Assembly (NCBI RefSeq): GCF_009914755.1 | Contig: NC_060927.1 | Strand: one strand, 5' to 3' | Source: the human T2T-CHM13v2.0 reference genome, Homo sapiens | DNA: 64,000 nucleotides | In this document: positions 1-63,407 of the stretch, piece by piece | How the letters are laid out: every line of letters begins with the position of its first letter | Numbering within the stretch: position 1 is the first letter of the stretch | The notes under the pieces: generated by a model | The model's database searches: none | Seen by the model: only the letters and a program-made list of their open reading frames with translations | What the model was told of the DNA's origin: nothing | Translations under genes and position numbers: made by a program

Positions 1-1262
<1,262 letters not shown>

Positions 1263-1614
1263 TTACAAGTAGCATAAACTAAGATGGATGTGTAGATAGA
1301 TACATAGGCCCCTTGTTATGTTTTCTTATCTTTCAGAACAAAAAAGTAGACAAGTTTCCTAGTCAAGATATTCCTTAGCTACAGCAGTCACAGGAAAATT
1401 ATAGCACATGTTACCTCTAATCATATATCTGTCTATAGAATGATTCATCCTGCATGTTTCTAACAGAGCGATCATTGCTCAGCACAACCCTGCTCATTTA
1501 ATTACTCCTCAGAATCCTCAAGTGGCTCTCAATACTTCCAAAATACAAGTCAAATCAGGTTTGCCTGTCTTCCAAACTCCTCAACAATTCAACTCTCAGC
1601 CATCTTTCATTTTG

Positions 1615-4461: not shown

Positions 4462-7400
4462 ATGACAGGTTCAAATTCCCAAATAACAATATTAACCTTA
4501 AATGTAAATGGCTTAAATGTCCCAATTAAAAGACATAGACCGGCAAACTGGATAAAGAGTCAAGACCCATCAGTGTGCTGTATTAAGGAGATCCAGCTCA
4601 TATGCAAAGACACACATAGGCTCAAAATACAGGGATAGAAAAAGATTTACCAAACGAATGGAAAGCAAAAAAAAAGCTACGGTTGTATTCTTAGTCTCTG
4701 GTAAAACAGACTTTAAACCAACAAAGATCAAAAGAGAAAAAGAAGGGCATTACATATTGGTAAAGGGACCAATGCAGCAAGAAGAGCTAACCATACTAAA
4801 TATGTATGCACCAAATACTGGAGCACACAGATTCATAAAGCAACTTCTTAGAGACCTACAAAGAGGCTTAGAATCCCACACAATAATAATGGGAGACTTT
4901 AACACCCCATTGGCAATATTAGACAGATCAATGAGACAGAAAATTAACAAGGATATCCAGGACTTGAACTCAGCTCTGGACCAAGCAGAACTAATAGACA
5001 TCTACAGAACTCTCCACCCCAAATCAACAGAATATACATTCTTCTCAGCACCTCATCACACTTATTCTAAAATTGAGCACATAATTGGAAGTAAAACATG
5101 CCTCAGCAAATGCAAAAGAATGGAAATCACAACAGTCTCTCAGACCACAGTACAATCAAAGTAGAACTCAGGATTAAGAAACTCACTCAGAACAGCAAAC
5201 AACATGGAAACTGAACAATGTGCTCCTGAATGACTACTGGGTAAATAACAAAATAAAGACAGAAATAAAGATGTTCCTTGAAACCAATAAGAACAAAGAC
5301 ACAATGTACAAGAATCTCTAGGACACATTTAAAAGAGTGTTTAGAGGGAAATTTATAGCACTACATGCCCACAAGAGAAAGCAGAAAATATCTAAAATTG
5401 ACACACTAACATCACAATTAAAAGAACTAGAGAAGGAAGAACAAACAAATTCAAAAGCAGCAGATGACAAGAAATAACTAAGATCAGAGCAGAACTGAAG
5501 AAGATAGAGCCATGAAAAATACTTCAAAAAATCAATGAATCCAAGAGTTGGTTTTTTGAAAAGATCAACAAAATAGACTGCTAGCCAGACTAATAGAGAA
5601 GAAAAGAGAGAAGAATCAAATAGGCACAATAAAAAATGATAAAGGGGATATAACCACTGATCCCACAGAAATACAAACTACCACCAGAGGATACTATAAA
5701 CACGTCTATGCAAATAAACTAGAAAATCTAGAAGAAATGGATAAATTCCTGGACACCTACACCCTCCCAAGTCTAAACCAGGAAGAAGTCGAATCCCTGA
5801 ATAGACCAATAAAAAGTTCTGAGATGGAGGCAGTAATTAACAGCCTACCACCAAAAAAAAATCCTGGACCAGACAGATTCACAGCTGATTTTTATGAGGG
5901 ATACAAAGAGGAGCTGGTACCATTCCTTCTGAAACTATTCCAAACAATAGAGAAAGAGAGAATCCTTTCTAACTCATTTTATGAGGCCAGCATCATCCTG
6001 ATACCAAAAGCTGGCAGAGACACACACAAAAAAGAAAATTTCAGGTCAATATCCCTGATGAACATCGATGCAAAAATCCTCAATAAAATACTGGCAAACC
6101 AAATCCAGCAGCACATCAAAAAGCTTACGCACCATGATCAAGTTGGCTTCATCCCTGGGATGCAAGGCTGGTTCAGCATACTCAAATCAATAAACGTAAT
6201 TGATCACAGAAACAGAACCAATGACAAAAACCACATGATTATCTAAATAGATGCAGAAAAGGCCTTCGACAAAATTCAACAACGCTTCATGGTGAAAGCT
6301 CTCAATAAACTAGGTATTGATGGAACAGATCTCAAAATAATAAGACCTATTTATGACAAACCCACAGCCAATATCATACTGAATGTGCAAAAACTGGAAG
6401 CATTCCTTTTGAAAACTGGCACAAGACAAGGATGTCCTCTCTCACCACTCCTATTCAACACAGTATTGGAAGTTTTGGCTAGGGCAATCAGGCAAGAGAA
6501 AGAAATAAAATGTATTCAAATAGGAAGAGAGGAAGTCAAATTGTCTCTGTTTGCAGATGACATGATTGTATATTTAGAAAACCCCAACATCTCAGCCCAA
6601 AATCTCCTTAATCTGATAAGCAACTTCAGCAAAGTCTCAGGATACAAAATCAATGTACCAAAATTACAAGCATTCCTATACACCAATAACAGACAAATAG
6701 CCAAATCATGAGTGTACTCCCATTCAGAATTGCTACAAAGGCAATAAAATACCTAGGAATGCAACTCACAAGGGATGTGAAGGACCTCTTCAAGGAGAAC
6801 TACAAACCACTGCTCAAGGAAATAAAAGAGGACGCAAATAAATGGAAAAACGTTCTATGCTTATGGATAGGAAGAATCAATAACATGAAAATGGCCATAG
6901 TGCCCAAAGTAATTTATAGATTCAATGCTTTCCCCAACAAGCTACCATTGACTTTCTTCACAGAATTAGAAAAAAAACTTTGAATTTCATATGGAACCAA
7001 AAACAAAAGTCCACATAGCCAAGAAAATCCTAACTAAAAAGAACAAAGCTGGGGGCATCATGCTACCTGACTTCAAACTATACTACACGGTGACAGTAAG
7101 CAAAACAGCATGGTACTGGTCCCGTAACAGATATACAGACCAATAGAACAGAACAGAGGCCTCAGAAATAACACCACACATATACAACCATCTGATCTTT
7201 GACAAACCTGACAAAAACAAGCAATGGGGAAAGAATTTCCTATTTAATAAATGGTGTTGAAAAAACTGGCTAGCCATATGTAAGAAACTGAATCTGGACT
7301 TTCCTTACACCCTATACAAAAATTAACTCAAGATGGATTAAAGGCTTAAATGTAAACCCTAAAACCATAAAAACCCTAGAGGAAAACCTAGGCAATACCA

Positions 7401-8253
7401 TTCAGGACATAGGTGTAGACAGAGACTTCATGACTAAAACACCAAAAGCAAAGGCAACAAAAGCCAAAATTGACAAATGGAATCTAATTAAACTAAAGAG
7501 TTTCTGCACAGCAAAATAAACTATTTTCAGAGTTAACAGGCAACCTACGGAAAGGGAGAAAAAATTTGCAATCTATCCATCTGACAAAGGGCTAATATCC
7601 AGAATCTACAAAGAACTTAAACAAATTTACAAGAAAAAAACTCAGTGGCCAAAGGCTATGAACACACACTTTTCAAAAGAAGACATTTATGCGGCCAAGA
7701 AACATAAAAAGCCCGTCATCACTAGTAATTAGAGAAATACAAATCAAAGTCACAATGAGATACCATCTCCTGCCAGTTAGTATGGCGCACATTAAAAAGT
7801 CAGGAAACAACCCATGCTGTAAAGGATGTGAAGAAATAGAAACGCTATACACTGTTTTTGGGAGTGTAAATTAGTTCAACCATTGTGGAAGACAGTGTGG
7901 CAATTCCTCAAGGATCTAAAACTAGAAATCCCATTTGACCTAGTAATCTCATTACTGGGTATATAGCCAAAGGATTATAAATCATTCTACCATAAAGACA
8001 CGTGCACATTTATGTATATTGTGGCACTGTTCACAATAGCAAAGACTTGGAACAAATCCAAATGCCCATCAATGATATACTGGATAAAGAAAATGTGGCA
8101 CATGTACACCATGGAATACTATGTAGCCATAAAAAGGATAAGTTTATGTCTTTTGCAGGTACATGGATGAAGCTGGAAACCATCATTCTCAGCAAACTAA
8201 CACAAGAACAGAAAATCAAACACCGCATGTTCTCACTCATAAGTGGGAGTTGA
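4462..8253 (+). pseudogene. L1 ORF2p remnant (endonuclease, reverse transcriptase, Cys-rich domain), fragmented
   Basis: ATGACAGG start; IMGDFNTPL endonuclease motif; [13 protein letters not shown] and [11 protein letters not shown] motifs; split into many short ORFs; ends HRMFSLISGS. Confidence 0.9.
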
Positions 8254-8477
8254 ACAATGAGAACACATGGAAACAGGAAGGGGAACATGACACACTGGGG
8301 ACTGTCGGGAGCTGAGGGGCTAGGGGAGGGACAGCATTAGGATAAATACCTGATTAGATGATGAGTTGATGGGTGCAGAAAACCACCATGGCACCTATAT
8401 GTCTTTTGTAACAAAACTGAACGTTCTGCACATGTACCCCAGAACTTAAAATATATTAATAAAAAATATATTTATGT

Positions 8478-31553: not shown

Positions 31554-32460
31554 TGAAGCTTGAGTTTTCATTCTACAATTTACTGAATGACATTTGAGCA
31601 GCTAGCTGACTTTTTAATGCCTTGATTTTAATAATTCAATGAGTTATTGGGTGAGATAATTTAGAACAGCATACATGATATCGTTATTATTAGTCAATAA
31701 AATGCTATTTATCTTATTTATTACTCATAACAAAAATATGTATATGACCCTTCGCTATGTTTGAATATGTGATATATTGAATTGAATTCACTGTGAGGCT
31801 TCAGTAGGTACCTATAATATTCAAATATGTTACCTGAAAGCTGTGAAAAATATATTTTTAAAAATTAGATTTACATGCAGTCAAGTTTTCTTTTGATGAC
31901 ACACTCTCTTGATATATACTAAGTTTTATACTTGGAATCTTTCACTTTTATCCTTACTCAGAAACGTGAATATTAAGAATCAGTAGAGCCAGCTCTTCTA
32001 CATGTTCCCTGCCAATTGCTATCTTGCCTACTTTTAAAACACCTCTAACTTGAGAAAATGAAAACCCACAAACTAACAAATGTTCCAGGGAAGTCCATGG
32101 CATCACTTGGAACTTTTCATCATTAGTCCCAGTTACACTCTTTTGTGTTGTATACAACATTGGCATATACTCTAGTCATCTGTATGCCAAGTTAAATGAG
32201 ACTTCATTCAGCAACCAGTAATATGTCATGCATCAGAAGTCTCTCTCGTCATATTGCTTATCACCATCAAATAGTTTCCATTTTGTCTTTATTCCTTAAA
32301 AATTGTCATGCTTAAAATTGATGCAAATAATGTAGATACTTGTGATTCTATTATCTCTACATATGTTTTTCTATTTTGCAAGAGAAGTGAATTTTAATAA
32401 ATTAGTTCTCTTAGATTATAATGCTACAGAAAAACTGAATGACCTGACTCGTTGGTGATT

Positions 32461-32717
32461 TGATTGGGACTGGATTTGTGTTCCTGCCCAAATCTCGTGT
32501 TGAAATGTAATCCCCAATGCTGGAGATGGAACTGATGTGAGGTGATTGGATCATGGGAGTGGTTTCTAATAGTTTAACACCATCCCCGAAGTGCTGTTTC
32601 GTGATAGAGTTCTCTGAAGATCTGGTTGTTTAAAAATATGTGTACCTCCCATCTGTCTCTTCCTCCTGCTCTGGCCAGGTAAGATTTGCCTGCTTTCTCT
32701 TCACCTTCACCTTCCAC
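32461..32717 (+). mobile_element. MSTA/MSTB LTR, 5' half (target of the composite HERV-E)
   Basis: CCCAAATCTCGTGTTGAAATGTAATCCCCAATG...CTTCACCTTCCAC; preceded by TGATT (32456-32460). Confidence 0.85.
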
Positions 32718-32962
32718 TGAAGAGAGAGGTTAAAGATTAACCCCCCCACTCTAATCACATGTACTGTCTATAAATCTCAATCTATCAAGACCCTTTCACG
32801 TGGACCCCTTGGAGTTGTAAGCCCTTAAAAGGGTCTGGAGCTCTTTCTTCGGAGAGCGTCATTCTTGAGATGCAAGTCTGCTGACGCTCCCAGCCAAATA
32901 AAGCCTCTTCCTTCTTTAACATGGCATCTGAGGGGTTTTTGTCTGTGGCTCATCCTGCTGCA
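32718..32962 (+). mobile_element. 5' LTR (LTR2-family, probably LTR2C-like), 245-bp U3-deleted variant
   Basis: TGAAGAGAGAGGTTAAAGATTA...CCTGCTGCA; AATAAA at 32897-32902; followed by the PBS. Confidence 0.88.
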
Positions 32963-32967
32963 TTTCT

Positions 32968-32985
32968 TGGTTCCCTGACCAGGAA
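32968..32985 (+). promoter_or_regulatory. Primer-binding site complementary to tRNA-Glu (HERV-E group)
   Basis: TGGTTCCCTGACCAGGAA versus TGGTTCCCTGACCGGGAA, the reverse complement of the tRNA-Glu(CTC) 3' end (17/18). Confidence 0.88.
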
Positions 32986-33465
32986 GTGAGGTGATTAACG
33001 GACAGTTGAGGCAGCCCCTTAGGTGACTTACACCTGCCCTGCAGAGCATCCCTGCAGTGAACTCCAGCCAGCTTGAGCGATGGGGATCCTGAGACCGCTC
33101 CTGGGTAGGTATTTGTCCTGGTAGAACTCCTCGTCAGAGTGGTGCATGGCAGGCCCCCGCAGATTAACAATGCAATGTCTGAACACTGGGAAGGAACCAT
33201 TGCTTGGAGTCCAGACATCTGGAATACAGAAGGACCGGTCCTGGGAACTTGCCCACTGCATTTGAGTGGAAGCGTGGCCTGATCACCCACTGTGTGCCCT
33301 TATGGGCACTTTGGTCTCAGTATTGATTTTGATTTGGCTTGACCTGTTTGCAAAAAGGAAAGTGAAAGTGAGTGAGTGCTTGAGTTTTAGATGTGCGAGG
33401 TGAGCGAGTGACCTCTTTACCCTTTCCTTCTTGTGGTGTGAGTGTTGTTTTGTCTCGGGAGGAAA

Positions 33466-34814
33466 ATGGGTGTTATGCAAAGTAAGCCCACTCTGCTAGG
33501 AACTATGTTGAAAAATTTCAAGGAAGGATTTAATGGAGACTATGGAGTTACTATACACCAGGAAAACTTAGGACTTTGTGTGAAATAGACTGGCCAGCAT
33601 TGGAAGTGGGTTGGGCATCAGAAGGAAACCTAGATGGGTCCCTTGTTTTTAAATGTATGGCACAAAGTAACTGGTAAGCCAAGACACCCAGACCAGTTTC
33701 CGTAAATAGACACTTGGTTACAGCTGGTTTTAGAGCCACCACAGTGGTTAAGAGGACAGGCAGCAGTAGTACTAGTGGCAAAGGGACAGACAGCCAAGGA
33801 AGAATCCTGCTCCACCAACCTAAGGCAGTCAGCTCCTAAAGTCCTGTCTGATCCAACACCAGAGGATTCATGGCAAGAAACAGCACCAGTGGCCCCCTTT
33901 CCACCAAGAAGAAAGGTCTCCCACTCCGATACCCCATCCTATACCAAAAAGCCACAAGCTCTGATGGATTTGCTCCAAACTGTTATCCAGACCCACAAAC
34001 CCCACCTGGGCTGATTGCCACTAGTTGCTCATATGCCTCTTTAACACAGATGAAAGGAGGAGAGTGCTCCAAGCAGCAACGAAGTGGCTTTAGAACATGT
34101 TCCAGCTGATTACCAAAACCCCCAAGAGTATATGAGGATCCAATTACCAGGAACAGATGCCGAGTGGGACCCAAATGAAAGACAGGGTATGCAAAGGCTA
34201 AACCGGTACAGGAAAGCCCTTCTGGAAGGGTTAAAGAAGGGAGCTCAGAAGGTCACAAATGTTAACAAAGTCTCTGAGGCCATTCAAGGAAAAGATGAGA
34301 GCCCGGCACAATTCTACAAGAGACTACGTGAGGCCTATCGTATGTATACCCCCTTTGATCCCAGTAGCCTTGAAAATCAGCACATGATTAACATGGCTTT
34401 AGTTAGTCAAAGTGCAGAAGACATTAAAGAAAATTTCAAAAACAGGCTGGGTTCACAGTCATGAATACTTCACAGTTACTGGAGATAGCCAAGCAGGTGT
34501 TTGTGAATAGAGACACGGTAAGCTACAGAGAGAACTGCAGAGAGAGTGAACGCCAAGCCCGGCGAAACGCCGACCTGCTAGCCACAGCTATAAGAGGGGC
34601 CCCCCCAAAGAGACCAGAGAAGGGGGGCCCCAGGAAAAATACCCAGTCTGTCCATCCACGCTTGCAGCGTAATCAGTGTGCTTACTGTAAGGAAATAGGA
34701 CGTTGGAAGGACAAGTGCCCACAGTTGAAAGGGAAACAAGGTGACTCTGAGCAGAAGGCCTCAGACAAGGATGAAGGGGCCTTGTTCAATCGGGCAGAAG
34801 GGTTACTGGACTGA
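33466..34814 (+). pseudogene. gag: HERV-E gag remnant (internal deletion near 33900, frameshifts)
   Basis: Starts MGVMQSKPTLLGTMLKNFKEGFNGDYG; major homology region QGKDESPAQFYKRL; zinc knuckle CAYCKEIGRWKDKC (H replaced by R); ends GLLD-TGA. Confidence 0.9.
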
Positions 34815-37800
34815 GGGGGACCAGGCTCATGTGCCCCCAAAGAGCCCATTGTCAGGATGACAGTCGGGTACGAGGACATTTAGTTTCTTGTCAATATTGG
34901 TGCTGAACATTCAGTAGTAACCACCCCAGTCGCCCCCTTATCCAAAAAGACTATTGACATAATCGGAGCCACAGGGGTTTCGGCAAAGCAAACGTTCTGT
35001 TTCCCCCAGACCTGCACTGTGTGGGGCATGAAGTGATTCATCAGTTCCTGTACATGGCTGACTGCCCCTTGCCTTTGCTAGGAACGGACCTACTTAGCAA
35101 GCTGAGAGCCACCATCACTTTTACAAAGCACGGCTCTTTACCGCTAAAGCTACCTGGAACGGGAGTCATAATGGCCCTTATGGTTCCCTGGGAGGAGGAA
35201 TGGAGACTCTTCTTAACTGAGCCAGGCCAAGAGATAGGAGCAACTCTGGCTAAGTGTTGGCCAAAGGTGTGGGTGGAAGACAACGCTCTAGGGTTGGCAA
35301 TCAACCAGGCCCCCGTACTCATAGAAGTTAAGCCTGGGGCCCAGCCAGTCAGACAAAAACAGTACCTGGTCCCCAGAGAAGCTCTTGAAGGTATCTGGAT
35401 CCATCTCGAGTGCCTGAGGGCCTTTGGAATTGTAGTCCCTTGTCAGTCTCCATGGAACAATCCCCTCCTGCCTGTTCCCAAGCCAGGGGCCATGGACTGC
35501 AGGCTGGCACAGGATTTGCGCTTGGTCAACCAAGCTACAGTGACTTTGCACCCAGTGGTACCTAACCTGTACACATTGTTGGGGTTGCTGCCAGCTGAGG
35601 ACAGCTGGTTCACTTGCCTGGACCTAAAGGACATTTTCTTTAGCATCAGGCTAGCTCCTGAGAGCCAGAAACTGTTTGCCTTTCAGTGGGAGGATCCGGA
35701 GTCAGGTGTCACCACTCAGTACCTTGGACCCAGCTTCCCCAAGGGTTCAAGAACTCCCCCACCATCTTTGGGGGGGTGCTGGCTTGAGACCTCCAGAAGT
35801 TTCCCACCAGAGACCTAGGCTGCTTGCTGCTCGAGTACATCGATGACCTCCTGTTGGGACACCCCACGGCAGTCGGGTGTGCCAAGGGAACGGATACCCT
35901 ACTCCAGCACCTGGAGGACTGTGGGTATAAGGTGCCCAAGAAGAAAGCTCAGATCTGCAGACAGCAGGTAAGTTACCTGGGATTTACTATCTGATAGGGG
36001 GAGCACAGCCTGGGATCAGAAAGAAAGCAGGTCATTTGCAACTTACCGGAGCCCGAGACCAGAAGGCAGGTGAGAGAATTCTTAGGAGCCATGGGGTTCT
36101 GCAGGTTATGGATCCCAAACTTTGCAGTACTGGCCAAGCCCCTGTACAGAGTCACAAAGGGGAGCGACAAGGAACCTTTCAAATGGGGGTCCCAAAAGCA
36201 ATGAGCTTTTCATGAGTTAAAAGAGAAACTCATGTCAGCCCCCGCCCTGGGGCTGCCTGACCTGACAAAGCCATTTACACTATATGTGTCAGAGAGAGAG
36301 AAGACGGTGGTTGGAGTTTTGACCCAGATCATGTGGCTCTGGCCAATGCTGGTGGCCTACATCTCTAAACAACTAGATGGGGTTTCTAAAGGTTGGCCCC
36401 CATGTTTGAGGGCCTTGGCTGCAACTGCCAATGGACGGATCCAGTTATCAGATAAAAAAATAGCCATGCCACAACTGCTAGGAGCCACAGTCGTACTGGC
36501 TGTTCTTGAGGCCCCACATGCTGTGGTGACTTTAATGAATACCAAAGGACATCATTGGCTAACAAATGCTAGACTAACTAGGTACCAAAGCTTACTCTAT
36601 GAAAATCCCCACATAACCATTGACGTTTGCAACACCTTGAACCCCACCACCTTACTCCTGGTATCAGAGAGCCCAGTTGAACCTAACTGTGTAGAGTTGT
36701 TGGACTCAGTTTATTCTAGCAGGCCCGACCTCCAAGACCATTCTTGGAAATCAGTAGACTGGGAGCTGTATATGAACGGGAGCAGCTTCGTCAACCCACA
36801 GGGAGAGAGATGTGCAGGATATGCAGTGGTAATGCTGGGCACTGTCATTGAAGCCAAATCATTGCCCAGGGTACTTCAGCCCAGAAGGCCAAACTCATTG
36901 CTTTAATTTGGGCCATAGAGCTAAGTGAAGATAAGACTGTAAATATTTATACTGACTCTTGGTATGCCTTCTTAACCCTGCAAGTGCATGGGGCATTGTA
37001 TAAAGAAAAAGGCCTGTTGAACTCTGGGGGAAAAGACACAAAGTATCAGCAAGAGATTCTGCAATTATTAGAGGCAGTGTGAAAGCCCCAAAAGGTGGCA
37101 GTCATGTACTGCAGAGGACACCAACAATCTTTCACCTTGATTGCCTTGGGGAACTCCCGAGCTGACTCAGAGGCTTGAAAAGCAGCATCCACCCCCTACC
37201 GGGCATCAGTCACAGCACCCCCTGCTCCTTCAGGCACCTGACCTTGTACCTACTTATTCTAAAGAAGAGAAGGACTTTCTCCAGGCAGAGGGAGGGCAGG
37301 TGATAGAAGAGGGATGGATCCAGTTATCAGATAGAAGAATAGCCATGCCACAACTGCTAGGAGCTGCAGTCGTACTGGCTGTTCATGAGACCACCCACCT
37401 AGGCCAAGAGTCACTTGAAAAGTTGTTAGGCTGGTAGTTCTACAACTCACATCCGGCAGCCCTTGCCAAAACAGTGGTGTATCAGTGTGTCACCTGCTGG
37501 CAGCAGAAAGGTAGGCAAAGTGCAAATGTCCCGCCCACCATACAAGCCTGTGGAGCAGACCCCTTTGAAGATCTCCAAGTAGACTTCACCAAGATGCCCA
37601 AATGTGGAGGTAACAAGTATTTGCTAGTTCTAGTGTGTACATACTCTGGGGGTGGTGGTGGTGGTGGTGTGGAGGTCTGTCCAACATGAACTGAGAAAAC
37701 TCTTGAAGTAACCTGTGTGATTCTCCGAGATCTCATCCCTAGGTTTGGACTGCCCTTACAAATAGACTCGGACAACAGGCTGGCATTTGTGGCTGACTTG

Positions 37801-38465
37801 GTACAGAAGACAGCAAAGGTATTGGGGATCACATGGAAACTACATACCACTTACCGACCACAGAGTTCTGGAAAAGTGGAGCAGATGAATCAGACTATCA
37901 AAAGTAATTTAGGGAAAGTGTGTCAAGAAACAGGATTAAAGTGGGTACAAGCTTTCCCTATGGTATTGTTTAAGATTAGATGTACCCCTTCTAAAAGAAC
38001 AGGATATTCCCCTTATGAACTATTATATCATAGGCTCCCTCCCATACTACGGGGATTCCCAGGCACTCCTCAAGAGCTAGGTGAAATTGAGTTACAGTGA
38101 CAGCTACAGGCTTTAAGGAAAATTACACAAACAATTTCAGCCTGGGTAAATGAGAGGTGCCCCATCAGCTTATTCTCCCCAGTTCACCCTTTCTCCTTAG
38201 GTGATCGGGTGTGGATCAAGGATTGGAACGTAACCCCCTTGCAGCCATTGTGGAAAGGACCCCAGACCGTCATCTTGACCACAGCCACAAAGGTAGAGGG
38301 AATCCCAGCCTGGATCCACCACAGCCATATAAAACCTACAGCACCTGAGACCTGGGAGGTAAGACCAAGCCAGGACAACCCCTGCAAAGTGATGCTGAAG
38401 AAGACAATAAGCCCTGCTCCTGTTACACCCAGAAGCTGGCTGGTCCATGCCTGGCTGAAGCATAA
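34815..38465 (+). pseudogene. pol: HERV-E pro-pol remnant (protease, RT, RNase H, integrase), multiply disrupted
   Basis: Protease FLVNIGAEH (DTG degenerate); CLDLKDIFF; YIDD at 35836-35847; APALGLPDLTKPF; integrase DLQVDFT, IDSDN, SSGKVEQMN, WKGP and WIHHSHIK. Confidence 0.92.
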
Positions 38466-39401
38466 GGAAACTCATTGTGGGTCTCATTTTCCTTAAATTT
38501 TAGACTTGTACAGTAAGTACTTCAACTGATCTTCCTCAGACTGAGGACTGTTCCCAGTGACATCAAGTTACTGAGGTAGGGCGAAAAGTTAAAACAGTCT
38601 TTCTGTTTTATAATTATTATGAAGGTACTGGAACTCTAAAAGGGACTTGTTTGTATAATGCCACCCAGTACAAGGTATGCATCCCAGGAAGTGACCAGCC
38701 TGATGTGTGCTATAACCCATCTGAGCCCCCTATGACTACAGTTTTCCAAATAAGATTGAGGACTGGCAACTGGGGAAAAGCTGATAAGAGTAAAGTAATA
38801 TCTAAAACAGAAGAGAAAGGAGTTCCCAAACAAATTATCTTAAAATTTGATGCCTGTGTGGCAATCAACAGTGACCCGTATGGAAATAGAATAAGATGCG
38901 GCTGTCTAGATTGGGAAAGTGGCTATATAGTAGAAAATAAGTATGTTTGCAATGAATTAGGACTGTATAGTGATGAACATAGTTACTGGTCCTGTGTCAT
39001 TTAGGCTACCTGGAAAAAAGATAAGAAGGACCCTGTCCTCCTTCAAAAAGGAAAGAGTAACTGTTCCTGCACTAGTGGTCACTGTAACTCATTAGAACTA
39101 CCTGATCACCATTGGAAAACAGGAGAGTATGTAACCCTAGGAATCAATGGAACTGGACTGGATCCCCAAGTAAATATTTAAGTGCAAAGGAAGGTCCACA
39201 GGCTCTTTCCCAAACCAGTGTTTCAGACCTTTTAATAATAATAGTGTTAGGAGCCTGCATGTTACTCCCCTGTATGTTACCCATATTTCTACCACCTTAG
39301 TTCATCAAAAGACCTCAGCACAAGTGTATTACATGAATCCCTATTGATCTGTCTCACAGGAAGACCTGGGTGGTGACTATGAAAGTGAGAACTCCCACTA
39401 G
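38462..39401 (+). pseudogene. env: HERV-E env remnant; start ATG mutated to ATA; large SU-TM deletion near 39234
   Basis: SU peptide YNATQYKVCIPGSDQPDVCYNP...ILKFDAC...YWSCVI, then an abrupt jump to the membrane anchor LIIIVLGACMLLPCMLPIFL. Confidence 0.85.
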
Positions 39402-39427
39402 TGAGTGAGGTTCTCAAAGTGGGGGAA

Positions 39428-39786
39428 TGAGGAGAGAGGCCATTTATCTTACTGTCTCCTGTCTCTGAAGAGAAAGAGGAAGTAAAAGCTGAAAAACAAC
39501 AGGAATGAAATCAGTGGCAAGACCAGCCAGTGCACCGATGACCAGGCCTGAGGTTAAAAGATTAACCCCCAACTCTAACCACATGTGCTACCTATAGATC
39601 TCAATCTATCATGACCCTTTCACGTGGAACCCCTTAGAGTTGTAAGCCCTTAAAAGGGCCAGGAACCCTTTCTTCGGGGAGCTCCATTCTTGAAATGCAA
39701 GTCGGCCAATAGTCCAGTCCGAATAAGGCCTCTTCCTTCTTTAATCTGGTATCTGAGGGGTTTTGTCTGCAGTTCATCCTGCTACA
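39428..39786 (+). mobile_element. Internal LTR, full-length 359-bp variant, preceded by a polypurine tract
   Basis: AAAGTGGGGGAA then TGAGGAGAGAGG...CCTGCTACA; contains 114 bp (39440-39553) absent from the outer LTRs; AATAAG instead of AATAAA at 39722-39727. Confidence 0.9.
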
Positions 39787-40106
39787 GTCCCAGTGCTGGT
39801 GGCCACAGGAGTGCTTATGTCGCCCCTCCCCTAAATGCAGACAGCACAGCATGGAGAGAGAGAGAGACTCCATTTGTTTGGGGGAGAGTGAAGGAAAAGA
39901 ACAAGAGCCTCTGCCTCATAATCCAGGGAATTCTGCCAGATCTTACTGCAGACCACCAAGGTGGTACATCTGTGAGTTTGCAAGAGTCATAGTGTTACTG
40001 GGCTTGAGATGCCTCTAAAGCAGATATGGCTGCAGTGACCAAATACTTAGATCACAACCCTCAATTCCCTTTGAATACTGGGAAAGCCTTCTCAAGGAGG
40101 ATGGGA

Positions 40107-40757
<651 letters not shown>

Positions 40758-41626
40758 CTAATTCTTTAATGGCCAGACATTGACCAATAGCCACAAGCAT
40801 CAAGAGCATCCAGGAAAACATGACCTCACAAAATTAAATAAGGCATGAGTGTCCAATCTCAGAGTGACAGAAATATGTGATCTTTCAGAGAAAAAATTCA
40901 AAATAGCTGCTTTGAGGAAGCTCAATGAAACTTAAGACAACACAGAGAAGGAATTCAGAATCCTATCAAATATATTTAACAAAGAGATTGAAATAATTTT
41001 TTAAAATCAAGCAGAAATTCTCGACCTGAAAAATGTAATTGACATACTGAAGAATGCATCAGATCTCTTACCAGCAGAACTGATCAAGCAGAAGAAAGAA
41101 TTAGTGAGGTTAAAGACAGGCTATTTGAAAATACACAGTCAGAAAAGACAAAATAAAAAAGAATTAAAAACTATAAATCAAGAAATAAAGTAAAATAAAA
41201 ACAATGAAGCACACTTACTAGATCTAGAAAATAGCCTCAAAAGAACAAATCTAAGCATTACAGGAGGTAGAGAGAGAGATCAGCATAGAAAATCTATTCA
41301 AAGGGATAGTAAGAGAGAACTTTCCAAACCTAGAGAATGATATCAATGTTCAACTGCAAGAAGGTTATAGAACACCAAGTAGATTTAACCCAAAGGAGAC
41401 TACCTCAAAGGCACTTAATAATCAAACTCCCAAGAGTCAAGGATGAAGAAAGAATTCTGAAGGAAGAAAGAGAAAAGAAACCAATAACATGTAAGGAGAT
41501 CCAGTATATCTTGCAGCAGACTTTTCAGTGGAAACATTATAGGCCAAGAGAGAGTGGCATGACATATTTAAAGAATTGAAGGAAAAAAAACTTTCATTCT
41601 AGAACATTATATCCAGTGAAAATATT

Positions 41627-41963
<337 letters not shown>

Positions 41964-43530
41964 TCAGCCTAACAGGGGGAGATGTCACGTGACACCCACC
42001 AGACTGGCAAAAATCCCACAACCCAATCCATGCAAGAGTTAGGGAGAATGGAGAGTAGCAGGAACACCAGGCACTGCTAAGAACGGTTGTGAAATATATT
42101 TTTGTTATGCTTCTATATGAAAGGGTGTGTGTTGTGGGTTATGAGAAAAATTACATTTCTTACCTGGGATGAAATTTTAAACATTGGAAGCTATTGACCA
42201 GAAGAAACTTGCACTTTTGTACAAAAGAAATACCCAAGAACATTCCTAACAAAACAGAGTCCTAAAGGCCCCAACCTGGCCAAACACTCATCAACAGGGA
42301 AATGAAGACATTTCCCATGCTCCTCTCATATGACCGGAGATCATGCAGCAATAAAAATGAATCATGTCAATGTGGGTGGGTCTCAGGAAGAGAATGGAGG
42401 ACAAAAATAGACATCGAGCAGATGCTCAGAGCCATGCAGTGTAGGAGCAGCCACACAGGAGAATTTCTCACATCAAAGTTCAAAACTACAGCCAAGGCAA
42501 CAGAGCAAGACCCTGTCTCAAAAAGACAATGGAAAGTTCCAAAACTAAATGGCATATTTTTTAGGGATGTACACATAAGTGGTGGAAGAAATGTACTATG
42601 AAGAAAAATATGGGAATAATAAAGACTAAAAGAGGAATTGATTCCCTCTGTAGGAGAAGGGAAGGGGCTAGGGCTCAGGCAGGGCCTCCGGGGAGCATCC
42701 AAAGTTATGTCTCTTCAGATTCTATTCCCTAAACTTGGTGGAGGTCCTCTGTGTCCAATGTGTCTGTATTCTTTATACCTTACCCATATTGTACAAATGC
42801 TTTATTTCTATTCAACATTTAGAAGACAATCATAAACAAAATGCATTAAATAGCAAGATGGCAAATGAACCTCAGGAAGGAACATCAGGAACATTCATGA
42901 GGTTCCATCCACGGAACCTCACCATGGATACGCTTGTGATCAAGGGCCTTGTCTCCCCTCAAGACAGTCACAGATCAGAGGCTGCCCTCATCATAGCAGT
43001 GGAACAGGACCAGCTGGGACAGGGTCCTTCTGTGACACCTGCTGTGTCACCAGGCTGTGCGAATGGACTCAGCTGCCAGAACTCACAGAATATCAGTAAC
43101 AGCACCGAAACTTCACAGGAAAAATGGTAAGTTGTAAGTTTCTCCATTAATAGTAACTCTCAGATTAGTCTATGTCATCCATCGCTTCTCCATTAAATAA
43201 CTTTTTATAGCTTTACATGGGTCGATTTTTCAATTTATATTTTATTTTACTAACTGAATGAAAAGATATATATTGTGTGTGGTGTGTGATTTTGTCTCAG
43301 TCAGGATAATCATAGTTTAATTTCTATTATTATTATACCAATATCATTTAGTTTTTTTAAGCTGTTCAATTCCTGAGGGTATTAATCAGGGTCTTTCTGT
43401 CTCATGAGACAAAAAACAAATCCAAACTGTGTAAGAGAAAGAAGAATGCATTGATCACGAGGACTGAGAAGCTCCCAGGCTTAACTTGCTTGGGATTCAG
43501 CTACATGTACAGTTTCAAGTGGTGTCCTGT

Positions 43531-43533
<3 letters not shown>

Positions 43534-43571
<38 letters not shown>
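43534..43571. repeat. (CT)n microsatellite
   Basis: Read directly from the sequence. Confidence 0.95.
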
Positions 43572-43574
<3 letters not shown>

Positions 43575-43575
<1 letters not shown>

Positions 43576-46500
43576 CCCCAACATCTGCTCCATGTTTAGC
43601 TCCACGAACTTCAGACTTAAAAAGCATCACTGGCTCCTGACCAGGATTCCAGCTCCATGAACCTCAAACTAGAACACCAGCCCGGCTTCTCTGCAGGTCT
43701 CCAGCTCCAAAACCTAAGACATCAGTGGCAGTACAAACTCATCCCAGGGGCTCCAGCTCCAGGACCCTCAGACTTGAACCGCAGCACCAACTCTTCCCTG
43801 GATCTCCATCTCCATGACCCTCAGACTTAAACAGCAGCAGCACCAGTTCATCTGTGAATCTCCAGCTCCACAACCCTCCAACTAGAAACACACCAGCTCC
43901 TCCCTGGGTCTCCAGCTGCACGACCCTCAAACTACAACATCAGCTCCTCCCCGGGTCTCTAACTCCATGACCCTCAAACTAAAACAACACTGCTCACCCC
44001 TGGGACTCCAGATCCACAAACCTTACACTAGAACAGAAACACCAGCTCCTCCACAGATCTCCAGCTTTACAATCTAAGACATTAGTGGCAGCACCATCTC
44101 CTCCTGGGGTCTCAAGCTCCAGGACCCTCAGACCTGAATCGCAGCACCAGCTCTTCCCCGGATCTCCAGCTTGACGACCTTCAGACTTAAACAACAAAAG
44201 AATCAGCTCCTCCCTGGGTCTCCAGCACCACAACCCACAAACTAGAAGAACACCACTCCCCCATGGATCTCCAGATCCATGACCCTCACACTAGAACACC
44301 AACACCTGCTCCTCCGTGGGTCTCCAGATCCACGAACCTCACACTGGAACACCAACACTGGCTCCTCTGCGGGTCTTCAGCTCCACAACCTAAGACATCA
44401 GTGGCAGCATTGGCTCCTCCCATGGATTCCAGCTCCAAGACCCTCACATTTAAACTGCAAGACCACCTTCTCCCTGTATCTCCAGCTGCACAACCCTCAA
44501 ACTAGAACATCAGCTCCTCCAATGGTCTTCAGCTGCACGAAACTCAAACTAGAAAAACAACAGCTCCTCCCTGGGTCTCCAGCTCTGCAACCATCAAACT
44601 AGAACACCATCAGCTCCTCTCCAGGTCTCCAGCTCCACAGCTCTCAAATAAGAGCAACATCAGCTTCTCCCTGGGTCTCCAGCTGCACAACCCTCAAACT
44701 AGAAAAACACCAGCTCCTGCCTGGGTCTCCAAGCTCCATGACCCTCAAACTCGAACAACATCAGCTCCTCCCCACGTCTCCAGCTGCATGACCCTCAATC
44801 TAGAAAAACAGCAGCAAACTAATAAAACCTCCCCGGGTGTTTCTAGTTTGAGGGTCATGCAGCTGGACACCTGGGAAGGAGCTGATTTTAATCTAGTTTG
44901 AGCATCGTGGAGCTGGACACTCAGGGAGGAGCAGATGTTTTTCTATTGTGAGGATTTTGGAGCTGGAGATCCAGGGTGGAGCAGTGTTGTTATAGTTTGA
45001 GGTCATCTGAGGGTCAGCTGCATGACCCTTAAGCCAGAAAAACACCATTTTCCCCCTGGGACTCCAGCTCCACAAACCTCACACTAAAACAGCAACACCG
45101 GCTCCTTCGCAGGTCTCCAGCTTTACAACCTAAGACATTCGTGGCAGCACCATCTCCTCCTGGGGTCTCAAGCTCCAGGACCCTCAGACTTGAACCGCAG
45201 CACCAGCTCTTCCCCGGATCTCCAGCTCGATGACCTTCAGACTTAAACAACAGAAGGATCGACTCCTCCCTGGGTCTCCAGCACCACGACCCTCAACTAG
45301 AACACCATGAGCTCCTCCCTGGGTCTCCAGCACCACAACCCAAAAACTAGAAGAACGTCACTCCCCCATGGATCTCCAGATCCACACCCTCACACTAGAA
45401 CACCAACACCGGCTCCTCTGTGGGTCTTCTGCTGCACAATCTAAGACATCAGTGGCAGCATTGACTCCTCCCATAGATTCCAGCTCCAGGACCCTCAGAT
45501 TTGAACCACAAGACCACCTCCTTCTTGGATCTCCAGCTGCACAACACTCAAACTAGAACAACATCAGCTCCACCCCGGGTCTCCAGCTCCATTACACTCA
45601 AATTAGAACAACATCAGCTCCTCTTTGAGTCTCCAGCTGAAAGATCGTAAAACAAGGACAACATCAGCTCCTTCCCGAGTCTTCAGCTGCAGGGCACTCA
45701 AACTAGAACATCAGCTCCTCCCCCCGTCTTCAGCTGCACGACCTTCAGACTAGAACATCAGCAACTCTCCTGGTCTCCAGCTGCAGGATACTCATATTAG
45801 AAAAACGCCAGCTCCTCCCGGGTTCTACAGCTGCATGACCCTCAAACTAAAAAACACCCGCTGCTCCCCAGGTCTCCAGCTGCATGAACCTCAAACTAGA
45901 ACAACATCAGCTCCTCCCCGGGTCTTCAGTTGCCTGACCCTCAAACTAGAACAACATCAGCTCCTCTCCAAGTCCCCAGATCACGGCCCTCAAACTAGAA
46001 CATTAGCTCCTTCCCGAGTCTTCAGCTGCACCACCCTCAACCTAGAACATCGGCTCCTCTCTGGGTCTCTAGCTGCTGGACACTCATACTAGAAAAACAC
46101 AAGCTCCTCCCAGGTTCTACTGTTGCACGACCCTCAAACTAAAAAACAACCGCTCCTCCTCAGGTCTCCAGGTGCATGAACCTCAAACCAGAACAACATC
46201 AGCTCATCCCCGGGTCTTAAGCTCATGGCCCTCAAACTAGAACATCAGCTCCTCCCTGAGTCTTAAGCTGCACAACCCTCAATTGAAAGCATCAGCTCTT
46301 CTCCAGGTCTTCAGCTGCAGGACACTCACACTAGAAAAATGCAAGCTCCTCATGGGTTCTACAGCTGTATGACCCTCAAACTAAAGAAACACCAGCTCCT
46401 CTCTGGGTCTCCAGCTCCATGACCCTCAAACTAGAACCAAATCAGCTCCTCTTTGCATCTCCAGTCGCATGGCTCTCAAACTAGAACATCAGCTCCTCTC

Positions 46501-47360
46501 CTGGTCTCCAGCTGTAGGACACTCATACTAGAAAAACGCCAGCTCTTCCCCGGTTCTACAGCTGCATGAATCTCAAACTAAAGAAACACCCGCTCCTCTC
46601 CATGTCTCCAGCTGCATGAACCTCAAATCAGAACAACACCAGCTCCTCTCTGGGTCTCCAGCTCCATGACCCTTAAACTAGAACCACATCAGCTCCTCTC
46701 TGGGTCTCCAGCTGAAAGACCCTCAACAAGAACAACATCAGCTCCCCTCCAAGTCTTCAGCTGCACAACCCTCAAACTAGAACAACATCAGCTCCTCTCC
46801 AGGTCTCCAGCTGCAGGACACTCATACTAGAAAAACACCAGCTCCTCCCGGGTTCTACAGCTGCATGACCCTCAAACTAAAAAACACCCGCTGCTCCCCA
46901 GGTCTCCAGCTACATGAACCTCAATCTAGAACAATACCTGCTCCTCTGTGGATCTCAAGCTCCATGATCCTCAAACTAGAATAACATCAGCTCCTCTCCA
47001 GGTCTCCAGCTGCAGTATCCTCAAACGAGAACATCAGCTTCTCCCTGAGTCTTCAGCGGCACGACCCTCAAACTAGAACATCAGCTCTTCTCCAGGTCTC
47101 CAGCTGCAGGACACTCATACTAGAAAAATACCAGCTCCCCCTGGGTTCTACAGCTGCACGGCCATCAAACTAAAGAAACACCAGCTGCTCTCTGGGTCTC
47201 CAGCTGCAGGACCCTCAAACCAGAACATCAGATTCTCCCGGGTTCTGCAGCTGCCCGACCCTCAAACTAAAGAAACTCCTGCTCCTCCCAGGGTCTATAG
47301 CTGCATGACCCTCAAACTAAAAAACACCAGCTCCTCCCCAGATCTCCAGCTGCAACCCTC
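43575..47360 (+). repeat. Diverged tandem array of ~47-53-bp units, consensus about CTCCAGCTGCACGACCCTCAAACTAGAACAACATCAGCTCCTCCCCGGGT
   Basis: Recurring CTCCAGCT / CCTCAAACTAGAA / CAGCTCCTC motifs about every 50 bp over ~3.8 kb; an inverted block at ~44837-45016. Confidence 0.93.
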
Positions 47361-47581
47361 CTATTGCTCCTTTGTTTGTTACCCATATTTCTCCAACTTC
47401 TAAGAAGTTTTGTTACTACCTTGGTTCATCAGAAAACTTCAGCACAAATGTATTACATGAATGTCTTGTAATACACAAGTGTATTACATGAATCACTGTC
47501 GATCTGTCTTGCAGAAAGACCTGGGTAGTGAAGATGAGAGTGAGACCTCCCACTAGTGAATAAGGTTCTCAAATGGGGGAA
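47361..47581 (+). pseudogene. env: Second HERV-E env 3' tail plus polypurine tract
   Basis: Homologous to ~39260-39427 (TGTTACCCATATTTCT...GAAGACCTGGGT...CTCCCACTAGTGA...GGTTCTCAAA-TGGGGGAA) but with different indels. Confidence 0.9.
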
Positions 47582-47821
47582 TGAAGAGAGAGGTTAAAGA
47601 TTAGCCCCCCTCTAATCACATATGCTATCTCTGAATGTCAATCTATCACAACCCTTTCACGTGAACCCCTTAGAGTTGTAAGTTCTTAAAAGGGCCAGGA
47701 ACTCTTTCTTCAGAGAGCTCAGTTCTTGACATGCAAGTCTGCTGATGCTCCTGGCCAAATAAAGCCACTTCCTTCTTAACCCGGTGTCTGAGTGGTTTTG
47801 TCTGTGGCTAGTCCTCCTACA
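47582..47821 (+). mobile_element. Terminal 3' LTR, 240-bp U3-deleted variant matching the 5' LTR
   Basis: TGAAGAGAGAGGTTAAAGATTA...CCTCCTACA; AATAAA at 47758-47763. Confidence 0.9.
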
Positions 47822-47969
47822 CCACCATGATTCTAACTTTCCTGAGGTTTTCTCAGAAGCCACTATGCTTCTCATACAGTCTGCAGAACCTTCAGCCAAT
47901 TAATCTTCTTTTCCCTATAAACTACCCAGTCTCAGGTATTTAATAGCAGTGAAAGAATGGACTAATACT
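47822..47969 (+). mobile_element. MSTA/MSTB LTR, 3' half
   Basis: CCACCATGATTCTAACTTTCCTGAGG...CCCAGTCTCAGGTATT...GGACTAATACT; followed by TGATT (47970-47974), matching 32456-32460. Confidence 0.87.
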
Positions 47970-61350: not shown

Positions 61351-61997
61351 AATATTAGAATTTTCTATCCTTTTTTGTGACTCATTTTTCTCTCTGTGTT
61401 AACTACATTCTCTTCAACTACAAGCAATTTCCTCCACGTGGCTGAAAAAGGTGACTGCAGTCAGGTCTATATCGTAGTGGTCATTTATTCCAAAAACACT
61501 TATGGTTTGTAAGGTCAAGTTAGTGACTTGATTGTATATGAAGTAGAGTCAACCCCACACAAATTACATGAAATGAGAGCGAGGGGATTTTTCCAAAGAT
61601 GAGAACAATGGACATGCTTCATGTCTATTTGTGTCTTCAGTCAGTCAGTTTTCAGCATGTAATGTACATTCCCTTCAGAGAAAACAAATGAACTAACATT
61701 TTAAAGACTGGACTATGGAGAAAATAAAAGCTAATACCCAACCTATTTGTTTTTACATTTGGATTTCTCCCCATTCATATGTTGAATAGGAAATTTCACG
61801 TTTCTTAAATAGATTTTTAAAAAGTATTTAAAATACGATTTCCTCAAATCTTTGCACGTATTTTTTCTGGTTCATTTTGTTTTACATGCTAGAGAAAAAT
61901 AAATACCAGCTACAAATATGAAGCAGAAATTGTCTATTGAGCATTGGTATCAAATTTTCTACTGAGAACACTGAAAGCATTATCTCATTTAAATATA

Positions 61998-63407
61998 TAT
62001 ATTAGAGTCTTAGGATGGTCATAACAAAGTACCATAGACCGAGTGGCTTAAAACAACAGAAATGCTGTTGGATCACTGTTCTGGAAGCCTGAAGTCCAAG
62101 TTCGAGTTGCTGACAGGGCAATGGTCCCTCTGGTGTATATAGAGGAACCCTTCCTTGCCTCGAGTTGCTGACCGGGCAATGGTCCCTCTGGTGTATATAG
62201 AGGAACCCTTCCTTGACTCGAGTTGCTGACAGGGCAATGGTCCCTCTGGTGTATATAGAGGAACCCTTCCTTGACTCGAGTTGCTGACAGGGCAATGGTC
62301 CCTCTGGTGTATATAGAGGAACCCTTCCTTGCCTCGAGTTGCTGACAGGGCAATGGTCCCTCTGGTGTATATAGAGGAATCCTTCCTTGCCTCGAGTTGC
62401 TGACAGGGCAATGGTCCCTCTGGTGTATATAGAGGAACCCTTCCTTGCCTCGAGTTGCTGACAGGGCAATGGTCCCTCTGGTGTATATAGAGGAACCCTT
62501 CCTTGCCTCGAGTTGCTGACAGGGCAATGGTCCCTCTGGTGTATATAGAGGAACCCTTCCTTGCCTCGAGTTGCTGACAGGGCAATGGTCCCTCTGGTGT
62601 ATATAGAGGAACCCTTCCTTGCCTCGAGTTGCTGACAGGGCAATGGTCCCTCTGGTGTATATAGAGGAACCCTTCCTTGACTCGAGTTGCTGACAGGGCA
62701 ATGGTCCCTCTGGTGTATATAGAGGAACCCTTCCTTGACTCGAGTTGCTGACAGGGCAATGGTCCCTCTGGTGTATATAGAGGAATCCTTCCTTGCCTCG
62801 AGTTGCTGACAGGGCAATGGTCCCTCTGGTGTATATAGAGGAACCCTTCCTTGCCTCGAGTTGCTGACAGGGCAATGGTCCCTCTGGTGTATATAGAGGA
62901 ACCCTTCCTTGACTCGAGTTGCTGACAGGGCAATGGTCCCTCTGGTGTATATAGAGGAACCCTTCCTTGACTCGAGTTGCTGACAGGGCAATGGTCCCTC
63001 TGGTGTATATAGAGGAACCCTTCCTTGCCTCGAGTTGCTGACAGGGCAATGGTCCCTCTGGTGTATATAGAGGAACCCTTCCTTGCCTCTTCACAGCTTT
63101 TGGCAGTTTTCTGCACACCTTTGCTGTCCCTTGAAGCTGCAAAATCCAGCCTCTTCGTTGCCACATTGTTCCTTCCTTGTGTGTATATTGGTCTTCTCAT
63201 GGCCACTTCTTACAAAGACACCAGTCGCATTGGATTAGGAACCCTCCTTACTCTGGTATGACCTCATATTAACCACTTACATCCACAACAACCTTTTCTA
63301 CAAATAAGGTCACACTTTGTAATACTGAAGGTTAGGAAACACTGGGTGTTTGGACTTCAGTATATCTTTTTGTTGTTGTTGGGGGGATACAATTCAACTG
63401 ATAATAC
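61998..63407 (-). mobile_element. MLT1 (B/C-like) LTR containing an expanded VNTR
   Basis: CATAACAAAGTACCATAGAC...GGAAGCCTGAAGTCCAAG before the array; CAAAGACACCAGTCGCATTGGATTAGG...ATACAATTCAAC after it. Confidence 0.82.
62103..63088. repeat. VNTR, 17 copies of a 58-bp unit
   Basis: Unit CGAGTTGCTGACAGGGCAATGGTCCCTCTGGTGTATATAGAGGAACCCTTCCTTG(C/A)CT, period 58, only three variable positions. Confidence 0.97.

What the first reader, a model, noticed from the sequence alone, without database searches (positions are those of the whole stretch)
39440..39553. Outer LTRs share a 114-bp U3 deletion that the internal LTR lacks: two parental proviruses
Seen: internal LTR reads TGAGGAGAGAGG-[114 bp ending GAGG]-TTAAAAGATTAA (359 bp). 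Both outer LTRs read TGAAGAGAGAGG-TTAAAGATTA (245 and 240 bp), a deletion across a GAGG microhomology. The outer pair also share CTCTAATCACAT, AAGTCTGCTGA and AAATAAAGCC against the internal copy. Established: reverse transcription copies U3 into both LTRs. Inference: the outer LTRs come from one RT event and the inner LTR from a different provirus. The outer LTRs differ at roughly 30-35 positions by eye (about 14%, many at CpGs), suggesting an insertion tens of millions of years old.
Basis: partly seen in the sequence, partly recalled or inferred. Interest (0 to 1): 0.7.

Follow-up and report, generated by a model that had tools for sequence, protein, structure and literature searches.

The report
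Ancient retrovirus carrying captured satellite DNA
A broken 15-kb retroviral insertion on human chromosome 3 is built from two different viral genomes and carries 7.6 kb of host DNA, including a satellite repeat, which it likely picked up by read-through and template switching, the way tumour viruses capture oncogenes.

Summary
In detail: LTR A (32718-32962) and LTR C (47582-47821) lack 39440-39553 of LTR B, and that junction was found nowhere else in the genome. A and C bound one 15,104-bp insertion with a 4-bp target-site duplication inside a split MaLR LTR. B comes from another provirus: its 3' flank is shared with solo LTRs at 3q29 and 5p14, which have their own 4-bp duplication, and the env tails before B and before C belong to different sublineages (0 versus 10 of 12 diagnostic columns). 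Between B and C lie 7.6 kb copied from that donor locus: L1, Alus and a D20S16-type satellite array. Best reading (0.55): a read-through RNA of the donor provirus was co-packaged with a second genome and joined to its 3' end during reverse transcription, roughly 25-35 million years ago. Main rival (0.33): DNA-level ectopic copying into a resident provirus; a retained intron and the RNA's length favour it. A new variant of retroviral transduction; no present-day function shown.

The parts
32453..32717 (+). Left part of the MaLR LTR that was the integration target (family name recalled); ends in the left CCAC copy, 32714-32717
   Evidence: an intact related copy near 23205 reads through the site once
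32718..32962 (+). LTR A, 5' LTR, short U3 (245 bp)
32968..32985 (+). Primer-binding site (tRNA-Glu type by recall)
   Evidence: same motif follows other 5' LTRs of the family
32963..39427 (+). Broken class I ERV internal region, 6,465 bp: gag (Gag_p30), RT, RNase H, integrase (rve, MLVIN_C), env start; many stops and frameshifts; about 250 bp missing in gag near 33928 and about 1.07 kb missing from env at 39234; purine tract at 39416-39427
39428..39786 (+). LTR B, full-length U3 (359 bp); inferred 3' LTR of the donor provirus; poly(A) hexamer reads AATAAG
39440..39553 (+). The 114 bp of U3 absent from A and C
39787..43595 (+). Captured host DNA, first part: starts with the donor's GTCC; L1 5' piece, two Alus (40107-40715), L1 piece, half Alu (41627-41874), low-copy sequence with an unspliced GT-AG intron at 43127-43599 (repeat names recalled)
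43596..47353 (+). D20S16-type satellite array, period about 50 bp, with a short inverted piece near 44815-45014; cut off before the donor array's end
47354..47581 (+). Second env tail and purine tract, from a different sublineage than the tail before B; holds a 31-nt duplication
47582..47821 (+). LTR C, 3' LTR, short U3 (240 bp)
47822..47960 (+). Right CCAC copy (47822-47825) and right part of the split MaLR LTR

Best explanation
This is a single, now broken 15,104-bp class I ERV insertion made of parts of two viral genomes plus 7.6 kb of host DNA, likely assembled in one round of reverse transcription by read-through transduction. Shown: one integration bounded by A and C; B and everything after it up to 47353 match a donor locus where the LTR is now solo; the env tail before C is from another sublineage. 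Inferred steps: (1) a donor provirus sat in an L1 at the GTCC site of the 3q29/5p14 duplicon and was transcribed past its 3' LTR (B) through L1, Alus and the D20S16 array; (2) this RNA of about 15-16 kb was packaged with the RNA of a second family member; (3) minus-strand synthesis copied U3, the purine tract and about 230 nt of env from the partner, jumped with little homology onto the satellite, and went on along the read-through RNA through B into the viral genes; (4) the 114-bp U3 deletion arose in this reaction or in the partner and was copied into both new LTRs; (5) the product integrated with a 4-bp duplication; the donor later collapsed to a solo LTR.
For: TSD CCAC and split MaLR; all 11 other family insertions checked have 4-bp duplications, 9 perfect and 2 with one mismatch. 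LTR-plus-flank match only at own locus, 3q29 and 5p14 among 40 scored of 3260 candidates (likewise 40 of 6375). B's best whole-LTR matches are the 3q29 (90%, first) and 5p14 (87%, third) solo LTRs; B carries the extra GAT that marks their group (6 rows, 86/84), all 6 of which have G at a site where A and C share A with 7 of the 10 other rows. Env tails: at 12 columns separating chr7/chr4 copies from chr5/chr2 copies, the tail before C follows chr7/chr4 at 10, the tail before B at 0. The junction lies 228 nt before LTR C, out of about 7.4 kb of internal sequence, and upstream of the AATAAA that follows the donor arrays. A chr2q32 array copy ends in an A-rich tail right after that AATAAA, hinting at a polyadenylated RNA in this sense. 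B and the two solo LTRs share no exclusive state and the window, 5p14, chr8 and the 3q29 clade form a star, so the donor was young when copied. Rare anomalies (U3 deletion, mosaic tail, 31-nt duplication, junction) cluster in the first 350 nt made in minus-strand synthesis. D20S16 RNA is abundant in oocytes, early embryos and testis (PMC12287470, text parts 1-3), and read-through packaging plus recombination is the stated route of transduction, with 17-kb RNAs packaged by HIV-1 (PMC3605237, passages).
Against: A GT-AG intron (43127-43599; RefSeq prediction) whose GT donor is kept in 9 of 9 aligned copies and whose acceptor is kept at 5p14 is not spliced out, and no exon-junction-like gap exists against the donors. 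The RNA had to pass B's signal and 9 further AATAAA hexamers and be nearly twice genome length. A-C divergence outside CpG (22 of 191) exceeds window-donor divergence (235 and 270 of 3219; Fisher p 0.046 and 0.14), as expected if the outer provirus were older than the captured DNA. No G-to-A strand bias in the captured DNA (28 of 665 versus 24 of 588). A and B share one exclusive non-CpG state and C does not. The chr7/chr4 copies were picked as best hits to the C tail, only its first 90 nt are informative, and the leader after A is not chr7-like (11 of 100 columns). The duplicon was spreading at DNA level at the same time. The expressed embryo loci in PMC12287470 are on chr20, not the donors.
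Confidence: 0.55

Rival explanations
1. Two steps at DNA level: an ordinary short-LTR provirus (A...C) integrated first; later a break inside it was repaired on the related, then full-length donor provirus, copying its 3' part, LTR B and 7.6 kb of flank, and rejoined to the resident env tail by end joining.
For: Retained intron and no length or polyadenylation problem; A-C somewhat more diverged than the captured DNA; the duplicon spread by DNA duplication in the same burst, with ends in Alus; leader and env start resemble the chr6 provirus, whose LTRs group loosely with A and C.
Against: Needs the break within about 3% of the internal region next to the purine tract, the exit before the donor poly(A) site, and a rare U3 deletion in the same provirus by coincidence; end branches of A, B and C are alike (0.12, 0.11, 0.10).
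Confidence: 0.33
2. B is a hybrid made at the LTR: a transcript started in the already solo LTR, or the solo locus itself, recombined with a viral 3' LTR, so that three templates contributed and the donor was never copied as a full provirus.
For: Both surviving donor copies are solo; B, 3q29 and 5p14 LTRs are not a supported clade (p-AU 0.19, neither shown nor rejected).
Against: B has the GAT marker of the donor group in the 5' third of U3 and is closest to the 3q29 LTR over its whole length; needs one more template or crossover.
Confidence: 0.08
3. One parent only: all three LTRs come from the donor provirus, with the deletion and a few substitutions made in one reverse transcription, and the odd env tail converted later; or B is an unrelated secondary insertion or a tandem LTR-LTR duplication.
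For: A+B+C as a clade is not rejected (p-AU 0.25); three of the four shared A/C substitutions are G-to-A, as deaminase editing would give.
Against: Tail before C differs from tail before B at 30 of 175 columns and follows another sublineage; B has no duplication of its own here and is preceded by env and a purine tract; there is no second internal region as in unequal-crossover three-LTR forms.
Confidence: 0.04

Closest known systems
Oncogene transduction by read-through and non-homologous recombination (Herman and Coffin 1987; Swain and Coffin 1992; seen only as cited in passages of PMC3605237 and PMC5131818)
   Same: Viral 5' part, host DNA downstream of a provirus, junction to the 3' end of a second genome, two matched outer LTRs.
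   Different: The donor's 3' LTR is kept inside, the host DNA is unspliced non-coding repeat rather than an oncogene, and the product was fixed in the germ line.
FAM8A1 transduction by HERV-K (Jamain 2001) and LTR-mediated retrocopies (PMC5131818, passages)
   Same: Host sequence inside a primate ERV with short similarity at a junction; PMC5131818 names FAM8A1 as the single described human case.
   Different: Those are mRNA pieces captured by two template switches, replacing viral sequence; here there is one non-homologous junction, a third LTR and genomic, intron-containing DNA.
DA and Xiao composite elements (PMC2700803, abstract, background and passages)
   Same: HERV-E-related sequence, satellite and host core, short TSD, similar age, mechanism unsettled.
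   Different: Xiao/DA are 30-300 kb, multi-copy, bounded by SATR-HERVE-SATR with mostly 6-bp TSDs; this element is single-copy, ends exactly in LTR termini with a 4-bp TSD and carries D20S16.
HERVERI supergroup mosaics (HERVE, Harlequin, HERV3, HERV1; PMC4724089, passages)
   Same: Class I backbone; the paper calls recombination especially common in this supergroup.
   Different: Their mosaics mix ERV sequences, and their criteria excluded chains with a third unrelated LTR; host-flank capture is not described in the passages read.
Three-LTR tandem HERV-K(HML-2) forms (PMC10742618, figure legend)
   Same: Three LTRs in one orientation.
   Different: Those have two internal regions from unequal crossover between near-identical LTRs; here host DNA takes the place of the second internal region.

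Membership tests
Single retroviral integration (A to C) | LTR termini TG...CA with a short target-site duplication of the family's length | tested here: met
   CCAC both sides; 4 bp in 11 of 11 other insertions, 2 with one mismatch
Single retroviral integration (A to C) | PBS after 5' LTR, purine tract before 3' LTR | tested here: met
Single retroviral integration (A to C) | Outer LTRs are sisters | tested here: inconclusive
   shared unique deletion and 2 exclusive non-CpG states (3 of 153 pairs reach 2); tree 96/75, alternatives not rejected
Read-through transduction product | Captured DNA is the 3' flank of a provirus elsewhere, in sense | tested here: met
   3q29 and 5p14 solo LTRs with GTCC duplication and colinear flank
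Read-through transduction product | 3' viral sequence from a second genome joined with little homology | tested here: met
   only a short imperfect overlap at the junction by eye
Read-through transduction product | Mark of passage through RNA (lost introns, poly(A), editing) | tested here: not met
   intron retained, no G-to-A bias; absence does not exclude an unspliced RNA
Read-through transduction product | No intermediate state without the captured DNA in other primates | not testable with these tools
   no relatives' genomes held
Class I (gamma-like) ERV | Gag_p30, RT, RNase H, integrase with MLV-type C-terminus | tested here: met
   5 of 8 open frames hit Pfam, including Gag_p30 and MLVIN_C above cut-off
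   no repeat library held; Glu-type PBS and HERV-E-like env end are recalled, not tested
D20S16 satellite | 47-53-bp units with CAGCT and CATCAG motifs; arrays on chr 2, 3, 5-9 and at chr20 49.57-50.29 Mb | tested here: met
   period 50; CAGCT 22.8 per kb versus 1.2 elsewhere; paralog places match
D20S16 satellite | Listed among the 20 published elements | tested here: inconclusive
   Table S1 of PMC12287470 is a picture and gave no text
DA/Xiao composite | SATR-HERVE-SATR flanks, multi-copy, OR7E core | tested here: not met
   LTR termini, junctions found only at this locus
TELO composite (ajax array) | 49-bp array bounded by teucer with TELO subunits at mostly subtelomeric loci | not tested
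   passages read; no sequence comparison made; the D20S16 match made it unnecessary

The most novel reading that the evidence does not exclude
A fixed fossil of oncogene-style read-through transduction in the primate germ line: an ERV moved an unspliced 7.6-kb piece of a segmental-duplication unit, satellite array included, to a new chromosome arm, preserving both parents' marks and the only surviving copy of a donor provirus that is now a solo LTR. Retroviral packaging would then be one route by which satellite arrays and duplicons disperse.
Probability: 0.55. Interest if true: 0.7.

Novelty: new variant of a known kind. Interest (0 to 1): 0.55.

Why it matters
Retroviral capture of host DNA is textbook for tumour viruses but has about one described case in the human genome (FAM8A1, per PMC5131818). 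Here donor site, both viral parents and both junctions can be read from the reference, and the cargo is a satellite-bearing duplicon piece. If made through RNA, it shows that a near-double-length unspliced read-through RNA can be reverse transcribed and fixed, which bears on the open DA/Xiao question of whether ERVs can move segmental duplications. If made at DNA level, it is a clean case of ERV-guided duplication. Either way the two readings are separable with existing primate genomes. The captured DNA also holds the start of a predicted lncRNA (LOC107986058) that runs toward CNTN6; no function is shown.

Tried and rejected
Short-LTR sublineage: not found, 275 matches against 160 for the control, 100 listed, 30 cut out, only the 2 own loci were LTRs. 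One search used a pattern that was off by one letter (34 matches versus 35 control) and is discarded. LTR phylogeny as the deciding test: too short, nothing rejected. Idea that A is B-like from the cap site onward: rests on 2-3 sites, one of which also differs between the two LTRs of a chr2 provirus; not used. Rooting window versus 3q29 versus 5p14 to see whether capture preceded solo-LTR formation: star-like, shared states 3/2/3 in the L1 part and 3/2/1 in the low-copy part. Deaminase signature: none. RNA structure as a pause site at the env junction: z 0.66, no support. chr8 copy as donor: joins the shared unit only at a full Alu, no ERV sequence in the 3.0 kb before or 1.5 kb after. Satellite as ajax or SATR: dropped for D20S16. 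Literature: 10 searches found no description of this locus in their listings; subscription papers, the Vargiu supplements and repeat-database notes were not seen and may describe it. Shin 2000 on long MLV genomes is not held. Earlier scan findings were not available.

Full report
Observation. The window is chr3:806001-870000 of T2T-CHM13. Three LTRs of one family lie in the same sense: A 32718-32962, B 39428-39786, C 47582-47821. A and C lack 39440-39553 of B, 114 bp with GAGG at both ends. The long form is the norm among the 40 best genome matches. The short junction has 2 exact matches in the genome, A and C, none at 1-2 mismatches and 18 uninspected at 3 mismatches against 10 for the control. 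No short-LTR sublineage was found, so the deletion arose in this insertion's own making or in a partner that left no other copy. One other U3 deletion of about 57 bp occurs in a duplicated chr2 copy, so such deletions are rare but not unique.

One integration. A is preceded and C followed by CCAC, and the flanks are the two parts of one MaLR LTR; an intact relative near 23205 reads through the site with a single CCAC. All 11 other family insertions checked have 4-bp duplications, 2 of them with one mismatch. A is followed by a primer-binding site and C preceded by a purine tract. The unit is 15,104 bp. Between A and B is a broken class I internal region: Gag_p30, RT, RNase H, integrase and MLVIN_C were found in 5 of 8 open frames scanned, and the env start matched three proteins, one a marmoset envelope entry. 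Assignment to the HERV-E-like group rests on recalled features; the repeat-library name could not be tested.

Where B comes from. B is followed not by a duplication of its own but by GTCC and L1 sequence. The same LTR-plus-flank occurs at chr3:198,424,513-869 (3q29, minus) and chr5:26,324,430-789 (5p14), where the LTR is solo and has GTCC on both sides; among 40 scored candidates no other locus has it. The window is colinear with 5p14 from 39428 into the satellite, both Alus and the half Alu included, so the cargo had close to its present length when copied. B's best whole-length match is the 3q29 LTR, its third the 5p14 LTR, and it shares their GAT marker. A solo LTR with a target duplication was once a full provirus (established), so the window most simply preserves that donor's 3' end and flank.

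The cargo. 39787-47353 holds L1, Alus, low-copy DNA found also on chr2, 3, 5, 6, 7, 8, 9 and 20, and a 3.7-kb array of period about 50. Unit motifs and chromosomal places match D20S16 as described in PMC12287470 (text parts 1-3 read); its coordinate table could not be read. The array is cut off before the donor's end, some 0.35-1.2 kb upstream of an AATAAA present in the donors and absent from the window. A chr2q32 copy ends in an A-rich tail right after that signal, though no duplication was found around it.

The second parent. At 47354 the satellite is joined to 228 nt of env tail; this junction occurs only here among 40 scored of 195 candidates. The tail differs from the one before B at 30 of 175 columns but from chr7 and chr4 proviruses at 22 of 197 and 22 of 188. 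At 12 columns that separate chr7/chr4 from chr5/chr2 copies it follows chr7/chr4 at 10; the tail before B does so at 0, follows chr5/chr2 at 9 and has a gap or third state at 3. The chr7/chr4 copies were chosen as best hits, and only the first 90 nt carry the signal; the leader after A is chr6/chr2-like at 87 of 100 columns, so the partner was itself a mosaic, as is common in this supergroup (PMC4724089, passages). In U3, A and C share 2 exclusive non-CpG states and an A found in 7 of 10 LTRs outside B's group and 0 of 6 inside it. The LTR tree of 28 rows (duplicates and 7 loci left out) puts A with C at 96/75 and rejects nothing: A+B p-AU 0.15, B+C 0.07, all three 0.25.

Age. Captured DNA versus donors: 9.0% and 10.3% (K2P), 7.7% and 9.0% outside CpG; the donors differ from each other by 9.5%. 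A-C: 17.1%, 12.6% outside CpG; three other 5'/3' pairs give 7.7-9.9%. At recalled rates of 0.13-0.2% per million years these give 19-40 and 31-66 million years; 25-35 is a fair middle. Window, 5p14, chr8 and the 3q29/5p15/2q37 clade form a star, and B shares no exclusive state with the solo LTRs: donor insertion, duplicon spread and this copy came close together.

Mechanism. Read-through transduction explains a junction next to the purine tract, an end before the donor's poly(A) signal, a second parent at the 3' end, and the clustering of deletion, mosaic tail and 31-nt duplication in the first stretch of minus-strand synthesis. PMC3605237 (passages) states that route and shows 17-kb RNAs packaged by HIV-1. 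Against it: an intron with conserved ends is retained, 9 AATAAA hexamers had to be passed, no editing bias is seen, and A-C looks somewhat older than the cargo (p 0.046 and 0.14). These fit repair of a break in a resident provirus on the donor's DNA. Weighing them by judgement gives about 0.55 for reverse transcription and 0.33 for the DNA route; the two-parent, captured-flank anatomy holds under both and I put it above 0.9.

Known systems and novelty. It works like oncogene capture but lacks the RNA mark that would prove membership. PMC5131818 (passages) names FAM8A1 as the single described human case, an mRNA capture with two switches. DA/Xiao (PMC2700803) are larger, multi-copy and bounded by satellite; tandem HML-2 forms (PMC10742618) have two internal regions. 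Ten literature searches gave no description of this locus in their listings; closed papers and unseen supplements may. Verdict: real, a new variant of a known kind, interest 0.55. The element is inert as a virus, and no present-day role is shown.

Noticed in passing
window 39722-39730 (LTR B): B's poly(A) hexamer reads AATAAG while both donor solo LTRs, A and C keep AATAAA; it would favour read-through if it predates capture, but may be later drift.
   Followed up: partly
window 39234-39258 and 47354: The right end of the env gap before B and the junction before C map within 19 nt of each other on the chr7 provirus env; no RNA structure explains it.
   Followed up: partly
window 47446-47495: 31-nt tandem duplication in the env tail containing a perfect 10-bp inverted repeat with a 2-nt loop, like a short-range template switch.
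   Followed up: no
L079/L080 (C2:188,355,180-188,359,050): D20S16 array copy ending in an A-rich tail after AATAAA; possible L1-made retrocopy, target duplication not found.
   Followed up: partly
L031-L033 (3q29, 198.42 Mb) and L067 (chr8, 69.76 Mb): Only the window, 5p14 and one 3q29 copy have L1 and LTR upstream of a half Alu; chr8 has a full Alu with other DNA, and the 3q29 copy's low-copy part nests with copies lacking the L1, pointing to Alu-Alu exchange or conversion.
   Followed up: partly
L012 and L014 (C2:112.19 Mb, 87.21 Mb): Duplicated 3' LTR with a different U3 deletion of about 57 bp, cut U5, and an LTR piece joining gag to integrase upstream.
   Followed up: no
C2:64,897,039-64,909,652: Two family LTRs in one sense about 12.3 kb apart, longer than a normal provirus of this family; may hold a secondary insertion or another capture.
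   Followed up: no
window 40995-64000: Predicted lncRNA LOC107986058 starts inside the captured L1, crosses the array and LTR C and ends just before CNTN6; a RefSeq silencer (37164-37213) lies in pol (hub annotation).
   Followed up: no
window 61986-63213: 58-bp tandem repeat with copies about 98% alike, just upstream of CNTN6.
   Followed up: no
window 1-1271 and 7301-8354: Two related long repeats about 85% alike, 7.2 kb apart.
   Followed up: no
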